Origin: Escherichia coli
GTDB lineage: Bacteria > Pseudomonadota > Gammaproteobacteria > Enterobacterales > Enterobacteriaceae
Strand: one strand, 5' to 3'
NCBI RefSeq assembly: GCF_003334765.1
Contig: NZ_QOWT01000052.1
Length of the DNA: 17,115 bases
The position numbers and the translations under genes are program-made. Shown here in pieces: positions 1 to 17,115 of this stretch; the first letter of the stretch is position 1, and each line of letters begins with the position of its first letter. The notes beneath the pieces were generated by a model. That model searched no databases. It had not been told where the DNA came from and saw only the letters and a program-made list of their open reading frames with translations.

Positions 1-77
1 GTGGCGGCCTCAGTCCGGAACAATTTGAAAACAAGAACCTCGCTTAGGCCTGTGTCCATATTACGTGGGTAGGATCA
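1..77 (-). repeat. Left copy of a perfect 77-bp terminal inverted repeat; reverse complement equals 17039..17115. Likely the terminus of an IS3-family element whose body lies outside the window.
   Basis: Reverse complement of 1..77 is identical to 17039..17115; identity stops at 78 versus 17038. Terminus reads TGATCCTACCCAC...TGGACA, an IS3-family-like end. Confidence 0.6.
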
Positions 78-574: not shown

Positions 575-2023
575 ATGCTAAAGGGCTTTGATATAACAAA
601 AGCAAAAGCACAAGAAGTAGATACAGAACTACTTAAGCGTAGAATTTCCACTGGAAAAGCCATCGCATTCACAGGTGCAGGCTTCTCACTCGGAACAAAA
701 AATGTACTAGGCTCTACCCCCCCAATGGCTGGAGAGCTAGCTAAGAAACTCAGTTTATTATGTAATCTCGAAGAATCTGAAGATTTAATGTTTGCAGCAG
801 ACGTTGCACTTGAGTACGCAGATAATATTTCAGTATTAGACTTACTTAAAGATAATTACACACTAACATCTGTTTCAGAATGTCATGAAAAAATATGTAA
901 ACTACCCTGGAAAAAATTTTTCACAACAAATTATGATAACTCTATAGAACTTGCCTGTCTGAATATAGGTAAACGTATAGAATCAGTTGACTTATCTTAC
1001 AAACCAACAAATTTTTTAAAAAAAAATAATGTTTGCCTTCATATTAATGGAAAAATTGAAAGTGCTGAACCTGAAGATTTAACCTCCAAAATAAAATTAT
1101 CAGATTCATCATACCTGTCTCCAGATTCATTTGTAAATTCTGATTGGTACTATCACTTCAAAAAAGATCTTGAAACCGCAAGTGCTATCGTATTTATGGG
1201 ATACTCCATGTATGATATGGATGTAAAAAAATTCTTGTTCGAAAATCCAGAGTTACAAGAAAAAACTTACTTCGTTGTAAGAGATGGTGCCGATTTTAAA
1301 GAAATATTCACCCTAAGAAAATATGGACATGTTTTGCCAATTGGGGTGGACAGGTTTTCAGATTTAATGAAGGATGTTCAAAAGCAATCACATGAAGATG
1401 GTGTTATCTTCACAGAAACACTAGTCAAATATGAAGTTTTCGACACACAAACAGACTTTAGAGATATTGATAGTGAGCGATTATTTCTTTACGGTGATTA
1501 TGAAATAGAAAAACTCCATGACTCTATCAGAAGAATAGAAACCATTCCGTACTTTATTAAACGCGATATAATTCCTGTTTGTCTTAACAACATTAAAAAT
1601 AATAATAACATTATTATCACTGGCGATCTGGGAAATGGAAAGTCTATAGTTTTAGAAATGTTAGCTTATGAGTTAACTGTAAATGGTTTTCACACATATA
1701 TATTACGAAATAACGATGGTGATTATGTTTCTGATCTTGATCAAATTATCAAACATGAGGGGACGGCCGTAATTATCATTGATAACTGCTCTAATCATCC
1801 GGGTTTGATAAAACATATTTTTGAAGTTAAAGCTGATAACTTAATTTATGTTTTTGCTGACAGAAACTCAAACGACATAAAATTTAATATTTCTCTTGAT
1901 TTTATAGAGCACAATATAGACTTACTATCTAGTGACGAAATCGCAAGCGCAGTAAAAATCATAGATAATTTATCTACATGGCAAAAATTTTCCGCATTAT
2001 CCACTGAGAGAAAAAAAGATTAG
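575..2023 (+). CDS. SIR2-like (SIR2_2-type) domain fused to a P-loop NTPase domain; N-terminal 482-aa segment of a longer frameshifted gene
   Basis: SIR2_2-like motifs: FTGAGFS, TTNYD, LHINGK, VFMGYSMYDMD. Walker A GDLGNGKS and Walker B-like AVIIIDN. RBS GGAG about 8 nt upstream of the ATG. AT-rich codon usage. Confidence 0.7.
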   Translation: MLKGFDITKAKAQEVDTELLKRRISTGKAIAFTGAGFSLGTKNVLGSTPPMAGELAKKLSLLCNLEESEDLMFAADVALEYADNISVLDLLKDNYTLTSVSECHEKICKLPWKKFFTTNYDNSIELACLNIGKRIESVDLSYKPTNFLKKNNVCLHINGKIESAEPEDLTSKIKLSDSSYLSPDSFVNSDWYYHFKKDLETASAIVFMGYSMYDMDVKKFLFENPELQEKTYFVVRDGADFKEIFTLRKYGHVLPIGVDRFSDLMKDVQKQSHEDGVIFTETLVKYEVFDTQTDFRDIDSERLFLYGDYEIEKLHDSIRRIETIPYFIKRDIIPVCLNNIKNNNNIIITGDLGNGKSIVLEMLAYELTVNGFHTYILRNNDGDYVSDLDQIIKHEGTAVIIIDNCSNHPGLIKHIFEVKADNLIYVFADRNSNDIKFNISLDFIEHNIDLLSSDEIASAVKIIDNLSTWQKFSALSTERKKD

Positions 2024-3917: not shown

Positions 3918-4295
3918 TTCAAAAAAATTCAGCCGGCGTCACGTCATTTAATTATGAATGCGTTCTCTCATGATTATATTTCCTGCGCCAGTAATCGAGT
4001 TTGTCTTGTGCATCTTCCAGTTTTCAGCGCCAGTGATATAAGACGGTAATTCGCCATTTGGATTGTCCGCATCCCCATAACGGTCAAACATCGTGGCGTT
4101 GACACAGTGACAGGAACCAGTGAATGTTCAGACACTCATCCCGCAGACTGCCGTTAAACGATTCAATAAACGGTTTATCTGCCAGCTTTCCGGGGGGCGA
4201 GAAGTCCATGTTCACACCGTGTTCATACGCCCCTTTATCCAGACTTTTGAGATAAACTCGCTGCCGTTGTCACCGCCACGATGTTTGACCGTTAT
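3918..4295 (-). pseudogene. IS3-family (IS2-group-like) orfB C-terminal remnant with frameshift and premature stop
   Basis: Minus-strand frames give GGDNGSEFISK, PGKLADKPFIESFNGSLRDECLNIHWFLSLEDAQDKLDYWRRKYNHERTHS, then stop, then TPAEFF: a DDE/integrase core C-terminus. Confidence 0.55.
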
Positions 4296-4327
4296 TTGCC
4301 ATTTTCATGCCCGCTAAGATACTTTCG

Positions 4328-5111
<784 letters not shown>

Positions 5112-5115
<4 letters not shown>

Positions 5116-5780
5116 AACAGCTCCTCATAGGTACTCAGTGGTCGATGTTCCACCTGACTGACCTGCTGCCAGAGCGGGGCGTGATGCTCCGGCACTGTCT
5201 GCCAGCCAGACGATGCCGGACAGAGGCGATGTGAGGCCACCAGTTTCTCATTACTGTAGATCCGCAACTCGTCATCCAGCGATATTCGTATCGATACTGG
5301 CTGACCACACAGCGCTTCGGGAACGCTGTAACGATTACCACCAACCTCGATATAGCTGTCCCAGGACACATGGCGGATGTCGAAGTAACTGGTATCGAAG
5401 TCCGTATCCGGTAACGGCTGCAGATGTTCCTGCTCCAGCGCGAAGCGCTGTTCCGGCGTTTCTTTGAACTGGCGAAGCTCCCGTTTGTCAGCCACATCGG
5501 CTATCCATTGCTCCAGTAGTTGATTAACATGAGTGAAGCTGTCGAACCTGCGGTACCGGACGAAGAAGTTCTCCTTGAGGTATTTCACCATCCGCTCAAC
5601 CTTACCTTTTGTTCTGGCCCTGCGTGGACGGCATGCCCGTGGCAGGAAGTTATAGTGGTCGGCCAGCAACAGGAATCCGGAGTTGAACACGACTTTCCCG
5701 TTGTTATTCTTCAGCACCGCAGCCTTCTGGTTATCAACCAGCACCGTTTTCACACAACCACCGAATTTGATCCCTGAAAA
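5112..5780 (-). pseudogene. istA: IS21-family istA, 5'-truncated (C-terminal part only)
   Basis: Translation ..GIKFGGCVKTVLVDNQKAAVLKNNNGKVVFN... continues in frame upstream of the called start to a stop near 5780. Confidence 0.7.
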
Positions 5781-10641: not shown

Positions 10642-12579
10642 TTAAAATAAATTATCTAATCCGAGCAAACTTTCTTTTTCCTTTTTTATCATGTTGAGAT
10701 GATTTAGTGATTTTAAATAAATATAATTATACATATCTTCAACCAAGTTTTCTAATACTAGGAAAACCCTGTTTTTTACACCTGCCTGTGTTAATAATTT
10801 ATCTATAAGCATACTGTTTTTATCGTTTATGATTCCATCAGATTTTATTTTATCGAGGCCTGAAATTATCTTTAAACATGAAGGTGTCGTAATTGCATTG
10901 TCAAAAATAATGTCATGCAAAGAGTATGTTGATAATTTTTCTATATCAGAGAAGGCGAGGACATTCAGAATGTTATCATTAAATGGACCGATTGATACAT
11001 CGTGCATAGATTCAAGTTTATTGTTATTTGATTTTCTATCTTTACGTAGTTCTTTATTTTGAACAATAACTCTCGCATCACCGATTAGTTTATAATAGAA
11101 ATTTTCAGCTAATGTGCTCGCTGAAAAATTCTCTTCTTTAAAACCAATCTCTTGCATTAACGGAATGATTAACTCTTCCGTTGTATTTTCCATGTCTATG
11201 TGGTTTAAAAAAACCGCAGTATTCAGCATAATAGAGTTATTTTTTAGTTCCTTTACCAAACTCAGCAATATCTTACTTTTTATACTAGATGCGCTGTTTT
11301 TAATGAATTCAGCCGCATGATACTCTTGAATTGTTTTATGGACAAATGTAAATATTTCGGCGCCATCTCTTCTGATCAAACCTGTGACATCGATATAGTC
11401 ATTAATAAGATCTTCGGCAAAAGTATCAGAATAATTGAGCCCCAAAACTTTAAATGATTTTTTAGTGATATTTTTTAAGTTATCCCATGATAATTGGGAT
11501 GAACTTTTTAGCGATATGTAACATAAAGCACAAAATATTTCTTTTGATTCACTAATTGAGAGGTTTGTTTTTCTATGCCTTTTATAGAAATTTTTTGTTT
11601 TATCATGGCCTTCAAATAGTATATTAAATATTCTATTGTAAAATTCTCTTGCATTTTTAGGCATTGAATCGAGATGCTTTTCACAAACACAAAGCAGTAC
11701 AGCAAGAATTGGAGTATTAATTGAAGAAAGCAATTGTTTATTTTTCTTAAGCGCTGCTATAAGTTGATCAGCTGACTCCTTTGGTAAAAAATTACCTATT
11801 ATGGAAAAAACATCTTTCTCTGTTAGTGGTTCAACATGATAATTATTTATTCCTGCAGTAGTGCATATTTCTGTTCCAGGCCGAGACGTTGATATTAATT
11901 GAGTCTGAAAAGAATCATTTAAATGCAATATTTCTTTTAAAATAGTTTCTCTAATATCAGGGGATATTTCATCAAAACCATCTAGTAGTAATATAATTTT
12001 TTTACTTTTCAGTAACCCCTTTAGGTCAGCATTAGTGCAGTTTAATTCGAGAGTAGTTAATGTTTTTATTAAACTATCTTGTATTGAATTGTTTTCCAAG
12101 TTTCTAAGATCAAAAAAGAATGGTATTTTATTAATTTTTGAATTATTACTTAAAATAGCTAGGAATATTTTTCTTAAAATTGTTGTTTTCCCTTGTCCAG
12201 CAGCGCCAATTATATTTAATATATTTTCATTTTGAATACAAAAATCATTATTAATTAAAAGGTCTTCATTTGTACGGTTGTTTTTTACCGTGAGTGGATG
12301 ATAAAATTCATCTATAAAAGCATCATCATTTAAATTATATAAAGTTCTTACTGACAAGTATCTTTTAATACATAAATCAAAATAATGAGTGAAAGTATCT
12401 TTCTTCAATATTTGTTCAATAAGTACTTTCGCATTATCAGTTCCATGTTTCCACTTTTGTGAAACTACTGAATTTAACAATTCGTAAGTTGATTTTGTTA
12501 AAGATTCACTAAAAGTTTCTACCATTTTATTGGTGGCCACAATACCCAGTGCAGCAGCAGATATTGTTAACGGTTCCAT
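10642..12579 (-). CDS. NACHT-domain NTPase (bacterial NACHT / STAND family), 645 aa
   Basis: Walker A GAAGQGKTT; NACHT-type Walker B ILLLDGFDE; sensor-1 ISTSRP; RBS AAGGAG 6 nt upstream of the ATG; AT-rich. Confidence 0.85.
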   Translation of the reverse strand: MEPLTISAAALGIVATNKMVETFSESLTKSTYELLNSVVSQKWKHGTDNAKVLIEQILKKDTFTHYFDLCIKRYLSVRTLYNLNDDAFIDEFYHPLTVKNNRTNEDLLINNDFCIQNENILNIIGAAGQGKTTILRKIFLAILSNNSKINKIPFFFDLRNLENNSIQDSLIKTLTTLELNCTNADLKGLLKSKKIILLLDGFDEISPDIRETILKEILHLNDSFQTQLISTSRPGTEICTTAGINNYHVEPLTEKDVFSIIGNFLPKESADQLIAALKKNKQLLSSINTPILAVLLCVCEKHLDSMPKNAREFYNRIFNILFEGHDKTKNFYKRHRKTNLSISESKEIFCALCYISLKSSSQLSWDNLKNITKKSFKVLGLNYSDTFAEDLINDYIDVTGLIRRDGAEIFTFVHKTIQEYHAAEFIKNSASSIKSKILLSLVKELKNNSIMLNTAVFLNHIDMENTTEELIIPLMQEIGFKEENFSASTLAENFYYKLIGDARVIVQNKELRKDRKSNNNKLESMHDVSIGPFNDNILNVLAFSDIEKLSTYSLHDIIFDNAITTPSCLKIISGLDKIKSDGIINDKNSMLIDKLLTQAGVKNRVFLVLENLVEDMYNYIYLKSLNHLNMIKKEKESLLGLDNLF

Positions 12580-12867
12580 TTTTGCTCCTTCAAAAAATTA
12601 TAAAGTGACTGTCTAAATTCATTTAGAATAAAAAGGATAATTACTGATTCTTGATATGGAAGTTATAAAGTGGTTCATATTAAGAAATTCCAAAACCTAA
12701 AGTGTTTGTAACTATATAAAAAATAGATAATAAATCAAGGTTGTTGACATAAAATTTGACACGACGAACTGAAACTCAATGTGGACTAAGGAAAGCACTT
12801 ACCCTATTGTAAAGCATTGATTTAAAATGTTATTTTTTATATTTAACATAATCTTTGTTATGCGCAC

Positions 12868-13570
12868 TAAGGGTGTAACAGCAAAGTTGTAATGTCCGCC
12901 TTGGGCTAAGTTAAGATGTCCGGCGTGTATAATCAAGTAAGGATTACCATGACGGCTCTCGCAGCGGAGTTTTTCACTTTGGATGAAGTTAACCGACTCA
13001 AGATTATTCAGGACGTCATCGACCGGCGTCTGACAACACAGATGGCAGCGCAGCGGCTTGGTATCTCCGACCGCCAGTGCCGTCGTCTGCTTGCGCGTTA
13101 TCGTGAAGATGGTCCGCTTGGCATGACCAGCCGCGTGTCGAAATCACTCACTGTGCAGTACGACAAAGTGCTTTACCTCATTGAAGACAATGAGTTCAGT
13201 CGTCGGGCGATTGGTAAATACATTGATGTCTGGCATTACCCTGACGGACATAAAGAGCTCCGGCTTAATGGCGTATCAATTCCCTACTCCACCTATGACA
13301 AACTGTCTGAAATCGATCAGGGTGCCATTGTGGACAATAAACGTCTTGGGCGTGCGCTGGAGATGGCGCAACTTGTGCAGGCCGAACGGGATAATAACCG
13401 GTCACAATCAGTGCCATCCGGTGACGGCCCTTCACGCAGGCGCAAAGCCCCTACGACGAAGAAATCCCAGCGTTCTTTGGACCAGGACGATATGTTCAAT
13501 GCACTTGTAAAACTTCAGACACGAGCTGAGGAGATTTTTGGTGAACGCAACCAAAAATGATGTTTTGATA
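12868..13570 (+). mobile_element. ISNCY/IS481-like IS remnant with an internally deleted transposase gene
   Basis: Left-end sequence AAGGGTGTA... is shared with the full copy at about 15675; the gene lacks the catalytic core. Confidence 0.5.
12949..13560 (+). pseudogene. Internally deleted DDE transposase derivative: N-terminal HTH fused in frame to the C-terminal domain (about 280 aa of catalytic core missing)
   Basis: Residues ..NRLKIIQDVIDRRL..GPLGM and ..LTVQYDKVLYLIEDNEFSRRAIGKYIDVWHYPDGHKELRLNG.. align to both ends of the 415-aa transposase at 15794..17041. Extended -10 TGTATAAT and RBS AAGGA precede the ATG at 12949. Confidence 0.6.
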
Positions 13571-13611
13571 CGAACATTTCAATGGTCAATAGATAGAGTG
13601 GAGATGGGCAG

Positions 13612-14658
13612 ATGATAACGTTTTCTATGGATGAAAGTGGCTATACGGGTTATGACTTACTCCACAAAGAGCAAAAATTCCAAGGCGCGTCATCAATATT
13701 AATAAACCATGATGACGCCAGTCGTCTGATAAAAGAATATTTCCCCAAACTTCAAGCCGATGAATTGAAGTACAGCTCGCTGAAAAGAAGAGATTCCAAC
13801 CGCAAGCCATTATTTGAATTGCAAAAGCATCTCTTATCTAATTACCCATGTATAACATGCGTAGGTGATAAACGCTTTTTACTAATTCTTATGTTCATCG
13901 ATTATGCTGTTGAACCATTCTATTATGATTTTGGGATTAATCTTTATGAGGATGGCGGTAACTTCTCAATGGCATCAATGGTGTATTACGTTGGACCAGC
14001 GTATTATGGCTCTGCCTTTGATGATGTTCTGCTTCAGTTTCAAAATGCTATGAAAGAAAAAACATTAGATTCAGTGAGTTTGCTAATAAGCAAAATAAGG
14101 AGGCTTGACTGGCAAAGGTTAAAAGAGTTTTTTGGTCCTTTGGCATTTAACCACCCAGATTGTATTGATGCCATCATGACTGATGGAATTAGCACTGATG
14201 CCTCATTTACTATTTTAAATGCATTAATTTCTCGCACGGAAATGATGTCCTCTGGAGAGTATGCAATTGAGCATGATCGTTCTAAAAATCTGCTAACTTA
14301 CAATGAACGCCTTAACTTTTTGATCAATTGTGATAAGGAAGGAGAGTTTAAACATTCCGAGATAGCAACTATCTCATTCCCACTAAACCTTAAAAAAGTC
14401 TATCAAATTGATTCGAAAGAAAGCCCAAGCGTGCAATTGTGTGATGTTCTTATAGGTGCATGTATTGAATCAGTTTATCAATTAATGGACTCTAAGGTAC
14501 TCAATCAAAATTCCGTTCTTTCACTTTACCAAGATAGCCAGTTAATACATTTCATACCTGATATAGATTTTGAAGGACAGAAAAAATTTAGGAAAGGCAG
14601 TCAAAGTGAGGAGTATCTTACGTTTATTCAAAATGAAATCTACTCTAGTAAACTTTAA
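13612..14658 (+). CDS. DUF3800-like protein (uncharacterised), 348 aa
   Basis: N-terminal FSMDESGYTG (DESG motif) and C-terminal VQLCDVLIGA (QxxD-like motif), as recalled for DUF3800; RBS GGAG; AT-rich. Confidence 0.6.
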   Translation: MITFSMDESGYTGYDLLHKEQKFQGASSILINHDDASRLIKEYFPKLQADELKYSSLKRRDSNRKPLFELQKHLLSNYPCITCVGDKRFLLILMFIDYAVEPFYYDFGINLYEDGGNFSMASMVYYVGPAYYGSAFDDVLLQFQNAMKEKTLDSVSLLISKIRRLDWQRLKEFFGPLAFNHPDCIDAIMTDGISTDASFTILNALISRTEMMSSGEYAIEHDRSKNLLTYNERLNFLINCDKEGEFKHSEIATISFPLNLKKVYQIDSKESPSVQLCDVLIGACIESVYQLMDSKVLNQNSVLSLYQDSQLIHFIPDIDFEGQKKFRKGSQSEEYLTFIQNEIYSSKL

Positions 14659-14663
14659 AAAAA

Positions 14664-14684
14664 GGCTCTGAAAATCAGAACCTT
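14664..14684. terminator. Imperfect hairpin between the convergent genes (possible bidirectional terminator)
   Basis: GGCTCTGA-AAA-TCAGAACC stem with one mismatch, A-run upstream. Confidence 0.3.
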
Positions 14685-14893
14685 ATCGCACCACCAGACA
14701 TAGAAATGATTCGTGAAGCTATTTTATACAGAACCAAAAACACAAAGGCCAAAACAGTCATGATATCTAATACCATAGGCATTACCTCCACTAACGTATT
14801 CAAGACAAACGCTTTATACCCGCATCAGTCCGTAGACAGGCATCTGTTCGTCAGTTTGTGGATTTCTATGGGTGGTGAGACCGGGTAGAGACA

Positions 14894-15538
14894 TCATACC
14901 TGTTTTCTTAGAAGCTGGTCAATATAGCTGATCGTGTGAAATTCACGTTCGATTTTCATACAAACATTTGGCAACTGTTCGATAAGAAAGTTTTCATCGA
15001 AGCGATCTAGAAGGTACGTGAGGGTAATAGTATCAATTTTATTCAATTTTCTATGTAAAACTGAAGAACGCCTCACAAAATCGTTTTTCCTTAACTCTTG
15101 AATAACATCGATCAAAATAGGGTTGAATAATTCTTTTTCTGGAAAGGACTTGTAAATTTTCGAATCAATAATTTGAGAAGGATCTAAGCGGTTAATTAAA
15201 TTATTACTGCTAACTATGTAGCACTTATCAATCATCAAACCTTCCGTTTTGCAACGGTCTAAATCACAAGCGTTTATTATACATTCTTTAAATACAACAT
15301 GTCGCAGGCTCCCGCCTCTAAAAAGGACTCCTCTTAATAAAGAGGATTGGAAAAGACTGCCAGTAAAGTTACACCATTTCAATGAAGCACCAATAAAAGA
15401 CGTGTTCGTGAATTTTGACTGAAAAAAATTTGAATGGTAACTGTGTGTCTTATTGAAATTTTTATTTATAAAATTCCTACTCGCAACATCACGATTATTG
15501 TAGCTGAAAGCATTTTTGCTCTTCTTATTCCTTGCCAT
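14894..15538 (-). CDS. Pentapeptide-repeat protein: N-terminal pentapeptide-repeat region plus a C-terminal domain of unknown function, 214 aa
   Basis: Residues about 20..95 show a 5-residue periodicity (RNFIN KNFNK .. SNFFQ SKFTN TSFIG ASLKW CNFTG SLFQS SLLRG VLFRG GSLRH VVFKE) with F/L at the centre position. Confidence 0.6.
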   Translation of the reverse strand: MARNKKSKNAFSYNNRDVASRNFINKNFNKTHSYHSNFFQSKFTNTSFIGASLKWCNFTGSLFQSSLLRGVLFRGGSLRHVVFKECIINACDLDRCKTEGLMIDKCYIVSSNNLINRLDPSQIIDSKIYKSFPEKELFNPILIDVIQELRKNDFVRRSSVLHRKLNKIDTITLTYLLDRFDENFLIEQLPNVCMKIEREFHTISYIDQLLRKQV

Positions 15539-15674
15539 ATTTATATCTCAGACTTTATAAGTCTAATGATATTCCCACGAATTGCTTTCCCTGTGAAGTT
15601 TTTGTTGACCAAGCAAAGCAGTTTATGGACATTTGAACTTTGCCCTACCCCGGACATCTGAACTTAGCTTTGAC

Positions 15675-17038
15675 AAAGGGTGTAGAGGCTCAATGCTAAT
15701 GTCTATTTGTGGCTCATTGGAATGTCCAGGCTATAGTTTCTCAGATCCCTATGTCTAGACAACGACTCACTTTTTCCTGATGAGGAGTTTTCTATGGCTA
15801 TAAATGACGCCGGAATGTTCACCGTGAAAGAAATCAATCGCCTCAAAATCCTTCAGGATGTCATCGATCGCAATATCCGTCCTGGACAGGCTGCCGAAAT
15901 GCTGGTCATCACGCCACGTCATTGCAGCCGTCTGCTCAAACGTTATCGCCAGTATGGGCCGCTTGGCATGAACAACCAGAGTCGTGGCCGCACTGGTAAC
16001 CGTCTGTTGCCAGCGTCACTGACAGATCAGGCACTCAGTATAATCCGGGAGCACTACCGTGATTTTGGCCCCACGCTAGCGCGGGAAAAGCTGGAGGAAG
16101 TTCACGGTCTGGTCCTTGGAAAGGAAACCATCCGACGTCTCATGATAAAGGCCGGACTCTGGATTCCCCGCAGACAACGCGCACCGAAAATTCATCAGCC
16201 TCGTTACCGGCGTCCTTGTACTGGCGAGCTGATACAAATTGATGGCTGCGACCACCACTGGTTTGAAAACCGGGGTCGACCCTGTACTGCCCTGGTCTAT
16301 GTTGACGATGCCACCAGTCGCCTGATGCACCTGCTGTTTGTGAAATCTGAGTCCACATTTACCTATTTTGAAGCTACACGTGGCTATATCGAGAAATACG
16401 GTAAACCGATGATCCTCTACAGCGATAAAGCCAGCATATTCAGAGTCAATAATAAGCACGCCACCACCGGCCCCGGCGAAACCCAGTTTGCCAGGGCCAT
16501 GCGCTGCCTTAATATTACTCCTTTGTGTGCTGAAACCAGCCAGGCAAAAGGCCGCGTTGAACGTGCTCATTTGACACTTCAGGACCGACTCGTTAAGGAG
16601 CTCAGGCTTAAGGGGATCTGTACAATAGAAGCGGCCAATGCATTTGCAGAAGAATACATGGCGGATTATAACCGTCGCTTTGCCAAAGAACCCTTGCATG
16701 ATTTTAACGCGCACCGGCCGCTGGCATTAGACGATGACCTTGATGCAGAATTTACCTGGCGAGAGCCTCGCCGGGTATCAAAAAATCTGACTGTACAATA
16801 CGATAAAATGCTCTATCTGATTGAGGACAACGAGTACAGTCGAAGAGCCATCGGCAAGTATATTGATGTCTGGCATTATCCTGACGGACATAAGGAGCTG
16901 CGACTAAATGGCGTGCTGCTGCCCTACTCCACCTATGACCGGCTTTCTGAGGTTGATCCCGTCGCCATTGTAGATAACAAGAGACTTGGCCATGTGTTGG
17001 ATGTTGCCCGTCAGGTCCAGAGAAAACGGGACAATAAT
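15675..17038 (+). mobile_element. ISNCY/IS481-like insertion sequence, 3'-truncated by insertion of the terminal-repeat element
   Basis: Left-end homology with the 12868 copy; the transposase reading frame is cut at 17038/17039. Confidence 0.6.
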
Positions 17039-17041
17039 TGA
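15794..17041 (+). CDS. DDE transposase (integrase-core type, ISNCY/IS481-like), 415 aa, C-terminally truncated by about 45 aa relative to the homolog at 12949..13560
   Basis: N-terminal HTH, central core (..QIDGCDHHWF..YVDDATSRLM..) and C-terminal DVWHYPDGHKELRLNG; RBS GAGGAG. The stop codon TGA is supplied by the first bases of the 77-bp repeat. Confidence 0.8.
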   Translation: MAINDAGMFTVKEINRLKILQDVIDRNIRPGQAAEMLVITPRHCSRLLKRYRQYGPLGMNNQSRGRTGNRLLPASLTDQALSIIREHYRDFGPTLAREKLEEVHGLVLGKETIRRLMIKAGLWIPRRQRAPKIHQPRYRRPCTGELIQIDGCDHHWFENRGRPCTALVYVDDATSRLMHLLFVKSESTFTYFEATRGYIEKYGKPMILYSDKASIFRVNNKHATTGPGETQFARAMRCLNITPLCAETSQAKGRVERAHLTLQDRLVKELRLKGICTIEAANAFAEEYMADYNRRFAKEPLHDFNAHRPLALDDDLDAEFTWREPRRVSKNLTVQYDKMLYLIEDNEYSRRAIGKYIDVWHYPDGHKELRLNGVLLPYSTYDRLSEVDPVAIVDNKRLGHVLDVARQVQRKRDNN

Positions 17042-17115
17042 TCCTACCCACGTAATATGGACACAGGCCTAAGCGAGGTTCTTGTTTTCAAATTGTTCCG
17101 GACTGAGGCCGCCAC
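17039..17115 (+). repeat. Right copy of the 77-bp terminal inverted repeat (IS3-family-like terminus)
   Basis: Identical to the reverse complement of 1..77. Confidence 0.6.

What the first reader, a model, noticed from the sequence alone, without database searches (positions are those of the whole stretch)
12868..13570. Internally deleted transposase retaining HTH and C-terminal domains in frame, with intact promoter and RBS
The 12949..13560 ORF aligns to the N-terminal HTH region and to the last 90 or so residues of the 415-aa transposase at 15794..17041 but lacks the catalytic core, and the two halves are joined in frame. An extended -10 (TGTATAAT) and an RBS are preserved, and its C-terminus is longer than that of the full copy, which is itself cut by the 77-bp repeat. 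Such derivatives can act as transposition inhibitors or DNA-binding regulators; it is co-directional with and 50 bp upstream of the DUF3800-like gene.
Basis: partly seen in the sequence, partly recalled or inferred. Interest (0 to 1): 0.45.

Follow-up and report, generated by a model that had tools for sequence, protein, structure and literature searches.

The report
Core-less transposase in a dif-targeting IS
The ORF is the remnant of the transposase gene of a 3.6-kb cargo-carrying insertion sequence (IS1202 family) that sits next to a Xer recombination site; a recent 795-bp in-frame deletion removed its catalytic core, and everything I could test points to ordinary decay rather than a new regulator.

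Summary
ORF 12949-13560 (203 aa) is an in-frame, internally deleted transposase gene. Its true parent is not the neighbouring 415-aa copy. It is a 468-aa transposase found intact in the same element on other plasmids. The deletion is exactly 795 bp (codons 63-327), between GCCGC repeats. It removes HTH2, the whole DDE core and the first beta-barrel strand.

The ORF belongs to a 2,802-bp element (12874-15675; 3,597-3,598 bp when intact) of the IS1202 family, xrs-targeting ISAba32/ISAjo2 subgroup. The element has TGT...ACA ends, paired inner binding sites and a 5-bp duplication (AAGGG). It lies 5 bp from the XerC arm of a dif-like site. The DUF3800 and pentapeptide-repeat genes are its cargo. 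It lies in tandem with an older relative cut by IS3.

The deletion is one recent event: 13 records, one IncF context, and the ORF has no differences in the five carrier loci compared base by base. In an unbiased sample of 59 family copies, 12 had internal deletions and only 2 were in frame. So an in-frame remnant with the native -10 and RBS is what chance predicts. The inhibitor or regulator function is untested and unsupported. The finding is ordinary: a new non-autonomous member of a known family.

The parts
12841..12868 (.). dif-like Xer recombination site (xrs): XerD arm ATTTAACATAA, spacer TCTTTG, XerC arm TTATGCGCACT
   Evidence: Read directly. The same site (C arm GGTGCGCATAA, spacer CAAAGA, D arm TTATGTTAAAT) is listed as an ISKpn21/ISKpn65 target in Harmer 2023, Table 8. 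Related sites precede at least 34 of 59 family copies.
12869..12873 (.). left copy of the 5-bp target-site duplication, AAGGG
   Evidence: The same pentamer follows the IRR at 15676-15680.
12874..12897 (+). IRL, the outer terminal inverted repeat, TGTAACAGCAAAGTTGTAATGTCC
   Evidence: Homology among independent insertions begins here. It matches the reverse complement of the IRR at 18 of 24 positions (my count from the ends printed).
12905..12921 (+). inner repeat of the IR core (GCTAAGTTAAGATGTCC), the presumed second transposase-binding site; it covers the -35 position of the tnp promoter
   Evidence: An inner second site is a described family feature.
12928..12933 (+). TATAAT -10 hexamer of the native tnp promoter (putative)
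   Evidence: Conserved in six related copies. Not called by the two-hexamer scan.
12949..13560 (+). internally deleted transposase ORF (203 aa): residues 1-62 fused to 328-468 of the 468-aa parent
13130..13134 (+). deletion junction; the microhomology GCCGC is present at both parental breakpoints (7 of 9 over ACCAGCCGC / GCCCGCCGC)
13612..14658 (+). cargo gene 1: DUF3800-domain protein (348 aa)
   Evidence: Lies inside the IS in all intact copies.
14894..15538 (-). cargo gene 2: pentapeptide-repeat protein (214 aa)
15627..15642 (-). inner repeat at the right end (GGACATTTGAACTTTG)
15652..15675 (-). IRR, the outer terminal inverted repeat, GGACATCTGAACTTAGCTTTGACA
   Evidence: Independent insertions end exactly here.
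15676..15680 (.). right copy of the target-site duplication, AAGGG
15681..17038 (+). older tandem IS1202-family element ('copy 2'). IRL TGTAGAGGC... starts at 15681. Its tnp (15794-17041, 415 aa) lacks the last ~53 codons and the IRR.
17039..17115 (.). end of an IS3 copy that truncates copy 2; an inverted twin lies at 1-77

Best explanation
The ORF is a decay product, not a new gene.

Origin of the element: a 3.6-kb 'transporter' insertion sequence of the IS1202 family (xrs-targeting ISAba32/ISAjo2 subgroup, ISKpn21-like) inserted 5 bp from the XerC arm of a plasmid dif-like site. It carries a transposase gene followed by two cargo genes, DUF3800 and a pentapeptide-repeat protein. It landed between that site and an older resident relative, and it duplicated AAGGG.

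The deletion: later, a single RecA-independent event (slippage or illegitimate recombination between GCCGC repeats) removed 795 bp of the transposase gene. It happens to be in frame. It removed HTH2, the entire DDE/RNase H core and the first strand of the beta-barrel. HTH1, most of the barrel and the C-terminal helices remain.

Why the signals look intact: the deletion is internal and recent, so the native -10, RBS, both terminal repeats and all four presumed binding sites are unchanged.

Consequences: the element can no longer move by itself. It is non-autonomous and at best mobilisable in trans. The ORF is probably still transcribed and translated at the native low level, and transcription probably still reads through to DUF3800. 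These last two steps are inferred, not shown.
For: 1. Parent and junction. An intact 468-aa gene sits in the same element elsewhere. The window lacks exactly 795 bp, with GCCGC at both breakpoints.
2. Element boundaries. There are TGT...ACA ends, paired inner sites and an AAGGG duplication. Three independent intact copies of 3,597-3,598 bp have their own perfect 5-bp duplications (AATTT, TAACG, AATTT). They lie next to xrs sites or to another IS end.
3. Family identity. The parent scores 512 bits on NF033594 (cutoff 250); the remnant scores only 72 bits. The published family description matches point by point. The fold resembles IstA, TnsB and MuA.
4. Domains removed, mapped on an AF2 model with pLDDT 83.
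5. Single recent event. The junction occurs in 9 of 5,426 E. coli genomes and 5 of 72,556 plasmids (13 accessions). All five carriers whose annotated region was fetched share the ParDE-(NACHT)-xrs context (NACHT is IS1-disrupted in one and unannotated in another). The ORF has no differences in the five carrier loci compared base by base. It differs from intact parents by only 2-3 nt in 612, and the IRL and IRR are identical to those of two of the three parents.
6. Neutral expectation. Among 59 family copies sampled by the C-terminal tail only, 29 are intact and 7 carry a frameshift or stop. A further 12 have internal deletions keeping HTH and tail; 2 of these are in frame, 5 are simple out-of-frame and 5 are multi-lesion. 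The remaining 11 are 5'-truncated. P(<=2 of 12 | 1/3) = 0.18.
7. PGAP annotates the ORF as two pseudogene fragments.
Against: - The ORF is intact, with an unaltered native -10 and RBS, so a protein is probably made.
- AF2 still predicts two confident compact domains in the remnant: HTH1 with pLDDT 85-94 and the beta domain with 85-90.
- Similar in-frame HTH-plus-C-tail remnants recur with at least eight different junctions. Two are widespread at the chromosomal dif site: K. pneumoniae P0109 in 401 index blocks and K. quasipneumoniae P0068 in 131.
- The remnant ORF stayed identical in carriers where Tn10 later destroyed the DUF3800 gene.
- None of this is distinguishable from recency and sampling, but it does not exclude function. 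No expression data were available.
Confidence: 0.78

Rival explanations
1. The remnant is a functional trans-acting protein. It would bind the IS ends through HTH1. It would then repress the tnp/DUF3800 promoter, poison transpososomes of related elements, or occupy the Xer-bound target. This would resemble Tn5 Inh, IS1 InsA, IS911 OrfA or the P-element KP repressor.
For: - The ORF is intact with native signals.
- The inner binding site 12905-12921 lies over the -35 position, 7 nt upstream of the -10, so binding there would repress (read from the sequence).
- HTH1 and the beta domain are still predicted as folded.
- In-frame remnants recur at dif/xrs sites in several species.
- IS1202-family cores are present in about 30% of E. 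coli genomes, giving possible targets.
Against: - HTH2, half of the bipartite end-binding module in TnsB/MuA-type transposases, is gone, and so is the first barrel strand.
- The only family member in cis (copy 2) is itself dead: it has no IRR and no C-tail.
- There is no in-frame enrichment in the unbiased census.
- It is a single lineage in 13 records, with too few substitutions to show any constraint.
- The remnant has no PADLOC hit.
Confidence: 0.1
2. The protein itself is irrelevant, but the in-frame state was favoured. It keeps ribosomes on the mRNA up to 51 nt before DUF3800. This avoids Rho-dependent polarity and preserves cargo-gene expression from the tnp promoter.
For: - DUF3800 is co-directional, 51 nt downstream, and has its own SD (GGAG). 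No separate promoter was called between 13400 and 13611.
- This arrangement is ancestral in all intact copies.
Against: - DUF3800 was later destroyed by Tn10 in at least three carriers (L007-L009). By annotation pattern this applies to six of the nine E. coli-genome carriers. So the cargo is dispensable there.
- The census shows no in-frame bias, although cargo presence was not scored.
Confidence: 0.08
3. The ORF is a chimera made by recombination between the two tandem IS copies, or an assembly artefact.
For: Chimeric remnants do occur in this family. In L025, L026, L027 and L064 the N-terminal parts are 37-61% identical to the reference transposase and the C-terminal parts 74-99%.
Against: - Both halves of the window ORF are 99-100% identical to one parent. 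They are only 57% and 81% identical to copy 2. Copy 2 is still present downstream.
- The same junction is found in 13 independently assembled records from Brazil, the USA, the UK and South Korea.
Confidence: 0.01

Closest known systems
IS1202 family, ISAba32/ISAjo2 subgroup, especially the 'transporter' IS tISKpn21, tISKpn65 and tISRel10 (Harmer, Pong & Hall 2023, PMC10132070; Siguier et al., bioRxiv 10.1101/2022.12.17.520857)
   Same: - The transposase family is the same.
- The termini are TGT...ACA, with ~24-bp imperfect TIRs and a second inner copy of the IR core at each end.
- There is a 5-bp TSD.
- Insertion is 5 bp from the XerC arm, with the IRL facing the site.
- Tandem arrays are separated by the same 5 bp.
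- Cargo ORFs are present.
   Different: - At 3.6 kb with two cargo genes, it is larger than the listed tIS (1,980-2,528 bp).
- PGAP gives its transposase only the generic name 'ISNCY family', so it may be unnamed.
- The window copy has lost codons 63-327 and is non-autonomous.
- Internal-deletion derivatives are not discussed in either paper ('truncated' does not occur and the single 'deletion' refers to an IS-mediated host cps-locus deletion; 'remnant' and 'partial' do not occur).
Truncated or alternative transposase products that inhibit transposition: Tn5 Inh, IS1 InsA, IS911 OrfA and the P-element KP repressor (from established knowledge)
   Same: A shorter protein that shares the DNA-binding and/or multimerisation parts of the transposase but lacks catalysis.
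   Different: Those are programmed products (alternative start or frameshift) or have experimentally shown activity. This ORF arose by one accidental deletion, keeps only one of two HTH domains, and shows no sign of selection.
Non-autonomous deletion derivatives of DNA transposons (Ds-type elements, precursors of MITEs)
   Same: The ends are intact and the interior is deleted at a short microhomology, so the element could be mobilised in trans by an autonomous relative.
   Different: This is a bacterial IS with cargo genes. There is only one lineage and one locus, with no evidence that it has moved since the deletion.
Tn7 TnsB, phage Mu MuA and IS21 IstA transposases
   Same: [quoted passage not shown]
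   Different: No partner ATPase (TnsC, MuB or IstB) is encoded. Targeting is presumed to work through Xer proteins bound at the site, an inference made in the literature.

Membership tests
IS1202 family, ISAba32/ISAjo2 (xrs-targeting) subgroup | Transposase homologous to the family (NCBIfam NF033594 ISNCY_2) | tested here: met
   The intact parent scores 512 bits and copy 2 scores 479 bits (cutoff 250). The remnant matches only at its two ends (72 bits), as expected after the deletion.
IS1202 family, ISAba32/ISAjo2 (xrs-targeting) subgroup | [quoted passage not shown] | tested here: met
   IRL is TGTAACAGCAAAGTTGTAATGTCC (12874-12897). IRR is GGACATCTGAACTTAGCTTTGACA (15652-15675). They match at 18 of 24 positions (my count).
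IS1202 family, ISAba32/ISAjo2 (xrs-targeting) subgroup | A second, inner copy of the IR core near each end | tested here: met
   The inner copies lie at 12905-12921 and 15627-15642, at matching spacing. The feature is described.
IS1202 family, ISAba32/ISAjo2 (xrs-targeting) subgroup | 5-bp (5-6 bp) target-site duplication | tested here: met
   AAGGG flanks the window element. AATTT, TAACG and AATTT flank three independent intact copies.
IS1202 family, ISAba32/ISAjo2 (xrs-targeting) subgroup | Inserted 5-6 bp from the XerC arm of a dif-like site, with the IRL facing the site | tested here: met
   The xrs at 12841-12868 is followed by 5 bp and then the IRL. The same geometry holds in L084, L085, L012, L016, L019 and L020, and in at least 34 of 59 census loci.
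IS1202 family, ISAba32/ISAjo2 (xrs-targeting) subgroup | Intact DDE catalytic triad (an autonomous element) | tested here: not met
   Residues 63-327, which include the columns D150, D211 and E256 (D150 and D211 invariant, E256 nearly invariant in A6), are deleted in the window copy. The window copy is therefore a defective derivative of a member, not an autonomous member.
Transposase-derived transposition inhibitor or regulator | Retains the full end-binding module | tested here: inconclusive
   HTH1 is kept but HTH2 is lost. Whether HTH1 alone binds the ends cannot be judged in silico.
Transposase-derived transposition inhibitor or regulator | Evidence of selection for the short form (in-frame excess, constraint after the deletion) | tested here: not met
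   In-frame forms are 2 of 12 (2 of 7 simple cases) in the unbiased census. The ORF has no differences in the five carrier loci compared, and differs from parents by only 1 synonymous and 1-2 non-synonymous changes, so there is no power.
Transposase-derived transposition inhibitor or regulator | The product is expressed and reduces transposition or promoter activity | not testable with these tools
   No transcript, proteome or functional data are accessible here.
Transposase-derived transposition inhibitor or regulator | A cognate active element is present to act on | tested here: inconclusive
   The only relative in the window (copy 2) is truncated by IS3 and lacks an IRR. Family cores exist in 1,643 of 5,426 E. 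coli genomes, but the carrier strains could not be checked individually.

The most novel reading that the evidence does not exclude
Core-less 'HTH plus C-terminal tail' proteins left by IS1202-family elements beside dif/xrs sites might be retained because they work. This would cover the window ORF and the independent remnants P0109, P0068, P0089 and P0002 at chromosomal dif. For example, they could act as trans-dominant inhibitors or site-occupying 'immunity' factors. Such factors would limit further Xer-site-targeted insertions, or they could act as repressors of the cargo genes.
Probability: 0.08. Interest if true: 0.6.

Novelty: new member of a known kind. Interest (0 to 1): 0.22.

Why it matters
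The practical value is in annotation.

- The region 12841-17038 is one coherent structure: an xrs site, a defective cargo-carrying IS1202-family element, then an older tandem relative. The DUF3800 and pentapeptide-repeat genes should be read as IS cargo delivered to a Xer site.
- The intact 3.6-kb form is larger than the 'transporter' IS listed for this family, and it is spread over Klebsiella, Citrobacter, Salmonella and E. coli plasmids.
- The family-wide census gives a usable baseline. About one copy in five carries an internal deletion, often a chimera between tandem copies, with reading frames as expected by chance.
- That baseline argues against reading in-frame transposase remnants as regulators without direct evidence.

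Tried and rejected
1. I looked for inverted repeats bounding only the tnp ORF, or the segment of homology with L002 (12839-14708). None was convincing. The true IRR lies 1 kb further on, at 15652-15675. L002 has a different right-hand part, and no IRR was found in it.
2. My first coordinates for the ends were off by one. This was corrected.
3. The two-hexamer promoter scan found no sigma-70 site upstream of the ORF. The three terminator-like hairpins are no more than chance predicts.
4. Pfam detects only the HTH region, even in the intact parent, and gives no rve hit.
5. PADLOC gave no hit for the remnant or the pentapeptide protein, and only a weak short hit for DUF3800.
6. I first read the many in-frame remnants found with the remnant as query as possible evidence of selection. 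I rejected this as ascertainment bias after the tail-anchored census.
7. I wrongly noted L064 as a decayed copy of the P0089 remnant. One search showed it is a different, distal copy, so multi-lesion loci were set aside as indeterminate.
8. A syn/non-syn comparison with the parents has no power, with only 2-3 differences.
9. I tried to see whether the nine carrier genomes hold an intact cognate copy. The listing could not be filtered by strain.

Full report
**Observation.** The window holds an ORF at 12949-13560 (203 aa). An in-frame ATG at 12916 would give 214 aa. BLASTP against the 415-aa ORF at 15794-17041 gives two collinear blocks. Residues 6-61 match 6-61 at 57% identity, and residues 62-150 match 327-415 at 81%. 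NCBIfam places the 415-aa protein in NF033594 (ISNCY_2) at 479 bits. The short ORF matches only at its two ends, at 72 bits against a cutoff of 250.

**Source and true parent.** The window is 99.98% identical over its whole length to E. coli plasmid pANT_425. There, PGAP annotates the ORF as two pseudogene fragments. Other plasmids matched the same query in two pieces spanning an extra ~0.8 kb. In NZ_CP024236 an intact 468-aa 'ISNCY family transposase' lies at the same position, 51 nt upstream of the same DUF3800 gene. Base-level comparison shows that the window lacks exactly 795 bp, or 265 codons. GCCGC is present at both parental breakpoints (ACCAGCCGC|CGTCGT and GCCCGCCGC|GTGTCG). In the window the junction is at 13130-13134. 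The parent is therefore this 468-aa protein. The 415-aa neighbour is a paralogue.

**The element the ORF belongs to.** Independent insertions of the transposase unit share sequence starting at TGTAACAGC... (12874). In four different contexts they are preceded by ATTTAACATAA-N6-TTATGCGCAC, a XerD-arm/spacer/XerC-arm site. Two papers describe exactly this arrangement for the IS1202 family, ISAba32/ISAjo2 subgroup:
- Insertion is 5-6 bp from the XerC arm, with the left end facing the site.
- The target-site duplication is 5 bp.
- The ends are TGT...ACA, with ~24-bp imperfect terminal repeats.
- A second inner copy of the repeat core lies near each end.
- Tandem copies are separated by the same 5 bp.
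- A few 'transporter' IS, such as ISKpn21, carry an extra ORF.

The motif GCTAAGTTAAGATGTCCGG (12905-12923) recurs inverted at 15650-15668, where 0.01 matches are expected by chance. Reading the ends directly gives the following order:
- xrs at 12841-12868
- AAGGG at 12869-12873
- IRL at 12874-12897, with its inner site at 12905-12921
- the inner site of the right end at 15627-15642, then IRR at 15652-15675, ending ...TTTGACA
- AAGGG again at 15676-15680
- the IRL of the second copy, from 15681

**Confirmation from intact copies.** A search with 12780-15790 found intact copies whose matches start at the IRL and end at the IRR. Three were fetched:
- K. pneumoniae pS166-1.1: 3,598 bp, duplication AATTT
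- C. braakii pF217-2: 3,597 bp, duplication TAACG
- K. pneumoniae pLH94-1: 3,598 bp, duplication AATTT

Each has a perfect 5-bp duplication, and each lies beside an xrs or beside another IS end. The DUF3800 gene (13612-14658) and the pentapeptide-repeat gene (14894-15538, minus strand) are thus cargo of the IS. Copy 2 was there first and was later cut by IS3. Inverted IS3 copies flank the whole window.

**What the deletion removed.** An AlphaFold model of the 468-aa parent was built from a 45-sequence alignment (pLDDT 83.4, pTM 0.66). It shows these parts:
- HTH1: helices 11-24, 30-37 and 41-59
- a linker
- HTH2: helices 76-119
- an RNase H-like core, 146-296, including the columns D150, D211 and E256 (D150 and D211 invariant, E256 nearly invariant)
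- a beta-barrel, 322-381
- C-terminal helices 383-416 and 444-462

Foldseek places the model with IstA, TnsB and MuA, in agreement with Harmer et al.. The deletion (63-327) starts three residues after HTH1. It removes HTH2, the whole catalytic core and the first barrel strand. A model of the remnant still shows HTH1 and the beta domain as confident compact units (pLDDT 85-94). AlphaFold is not a test of stability, however.

**Expression signals.**
- TATAAT (12928-12933) and the AAGGA RBS (12939-12943) are identical in intact relatives.
- The TG abuts the hexamer, so this is not the canonical extended -10.
- No acceptable -35 is present, and the consensus scan called nothing there.
- The inner binding site lies over the -35 position. 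This would allow autoregulation, which is an inference.
- The ATG at 12916 lies upstream of the -10 and is out of frame in L002, which has a 2-bp indel. So 12949 is the start.

**Age and spread.** A junction-spanning query found the deletion in 9 of 5,426 complete E. coli genomes and 5 of 72,556 PLSDB plasmids, 13 accessions in all. All are E. coli IncF plasmids. All five carriers whose annotated region was fetched share the ParDE-(NACHT)-xrs context, although NACHT is IS1-disrupted in one and unannotated in another. They come from Brazil, the USA, the UK and South Korea. In at least three, Tn10 has since cut the DUF3800 gene. The 612-bp ORF has no differences in the five carrier loci compared base by base. 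It differs from the intact parents by 2-3 nt (1 synonymous, 1-2 non-synonymous; L375I is specific to the window). The terminal repeats are identical to those of two of the three parents. This is one recent event, and it has no power for a selection test.

**Is an in-frame remnant special?** A search with the remnant found other short proteins of 147-240 aa, with at least eight different junctions. Four were examined:
- P0109 in K. pneumoniae, 401 index blocks
- P0068 in K. quasipneumoniae, 131 index blocks
- P0089 in E. coli
- P0002 in Salmonella

All four sit 5 bp from the canonical chromosomal dif sequence. One of them is a complete defective element with the duplication TTGAT, lying in tandem with another IS.

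That search was biased towards in-frame forms. I therefore sampled the family by the C-terminal tail alone, in species-representative genomes (59 loci). Each gene was classified by tblastn frames and stop-to-stop ORFs:

| State of the transposase gene | Loci |
|---|---|
| Intact | 29 |
| Full length, with a frameshift or stop | 7 |
| Internal deletion keeping HTH and tail | 12 |
| 5'-truncated or at a contig edge | 11 |

Of the 12 internal deletions, 2 are in frame (L037, L068) and 5 are simple out-of-frame cases (L025, L026, L027, L074, L079). The other 5 are multi-lesion and indeterminate. This fits the 1/3 expected by chance (P(<=2 of 12) = 0.18; 2 of 7 among simple cases). Several remnants are chimeras between tandem copies. 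The window ORF is not one. At least 34 of the 59 loci have a dif-like site 5-6 bp before the TGT.

**Verdict.** The finding is real and correctly described. It is best explained as a recently inactivated, non-autonomous copy of a cargo-carrying, Xer-site-targeting IS1202-family element. The in-frame junction and the preserved signals are what a recent internal deletion gives one time in three. The inhibitor or regulator idea cannot be excluded without experiments. It has no positive support and some evidence against it: HTH2 is lost, no live partner lies in cis, and there is no in-frame enrichment in the family.

Noticed in passing
window 12841-12868: This is a dif-like Xer site (ATTTAACATAA-TCTTTG-TTATGCGCACT). 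It is the same site, with spacer CAAAGA, that is listed in the literature as a target of ISKpn21 and ISKpn65. In carriers L007 and L009 the XerD-arm/spacer side reads differently (TTTTTATATTTAACTTATG...), which could reflect an indel or a Xer-mediated exchange.
   Followed up: partly
window 12874-17038; L016 3924-6110; L083 1480-1500: Tandem arrays of different IS1202-family elements sit at one xrs/dif site, separated by the same 5 bp. The site-proximal element is the later arrival. Several remnants in other genomes (L025, L026, L027, L064) look like chimeras made by deletions running from one tandem copy into the next.
   Followed up: partly
window 13612-14658 and 14894-15538; L003 3010-3927; L012 4787-5338; L016 4758-6001: Members of this IS group carry varied cargo: DUF3800 plus a pentapeptide-repeat protein here, an S-4TM 'pore-forming effector' in L003/L004, a GNAT acetyltransferase in K. 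pneumoniae, and GrpB plus DJ-1/PfpI in K. quasipneumoniae. DUF3800 is described as an RNase H2-like effector domain of type VII retrons (PMC7736814). The function of the cargo pair here is unknown.
   Followed up: partly
window 1-77 and 17039-17115: The window is bounded by the ends of two inverted IS3 copies, forming a perfect 77-bp inverted repeat. The whole 17-kb segment therefore looks like the interior of a composite IS3-flanked unit. It contains RepFIB, a tyrosine recombinase, ParDE, NACHT, SIR2 and the IS array.
   Followed up: partly
window 575-2023 and 10642-12579 (minus strand): Two defence-like genes lie in the window. One is a SIR2-family protein. The other is a 645-aa NACHT-domain protein, with PADLOC PDC-S60 at 1e-14 and a weak hit to the NCBIfam antiphage EruA model. 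The ParE toxin gene next to ParD is annotated as frameshifted in the matching record.
   Followed up: no
E. coli chromosomes at about 2.2-2.5 Mb (one search hits H237-H260): Distant IS1202-family cores, which PGAP names 'IS1202-like element ISEsa1', are found in many E. coli chromosomes. In total, 1,163 chromosomal places gave some match to the core. Many listed hits lie at positions compatible with the terminus/dif region. I did not check how close they are to dif.
   Followed up: no
window 15670-15675 (end of IRR) and 12874-12897 (IRL): The IRR ends in a perfect -35 hexamer (TTGACA). If the ends were abutted in a circle with a 5-bp spacer, it would lie 19 nt from TGTAAT in the IRL. This may be a weak junction promoter of the kind used by copy-out-paste-in IS. 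Circles are reported for ISKpn21.
   Followed up: no
L007-L009 (carriers), locus positions 4243-5521: In several carriers of the deletion, IS10/Tn10 (tetR(B)-tet(B)) has inserted into the DUF3800 cargo gene. Only a 204-bp stub is left, while the transposase remnant upstream is unchanged.
   Followed up: yes
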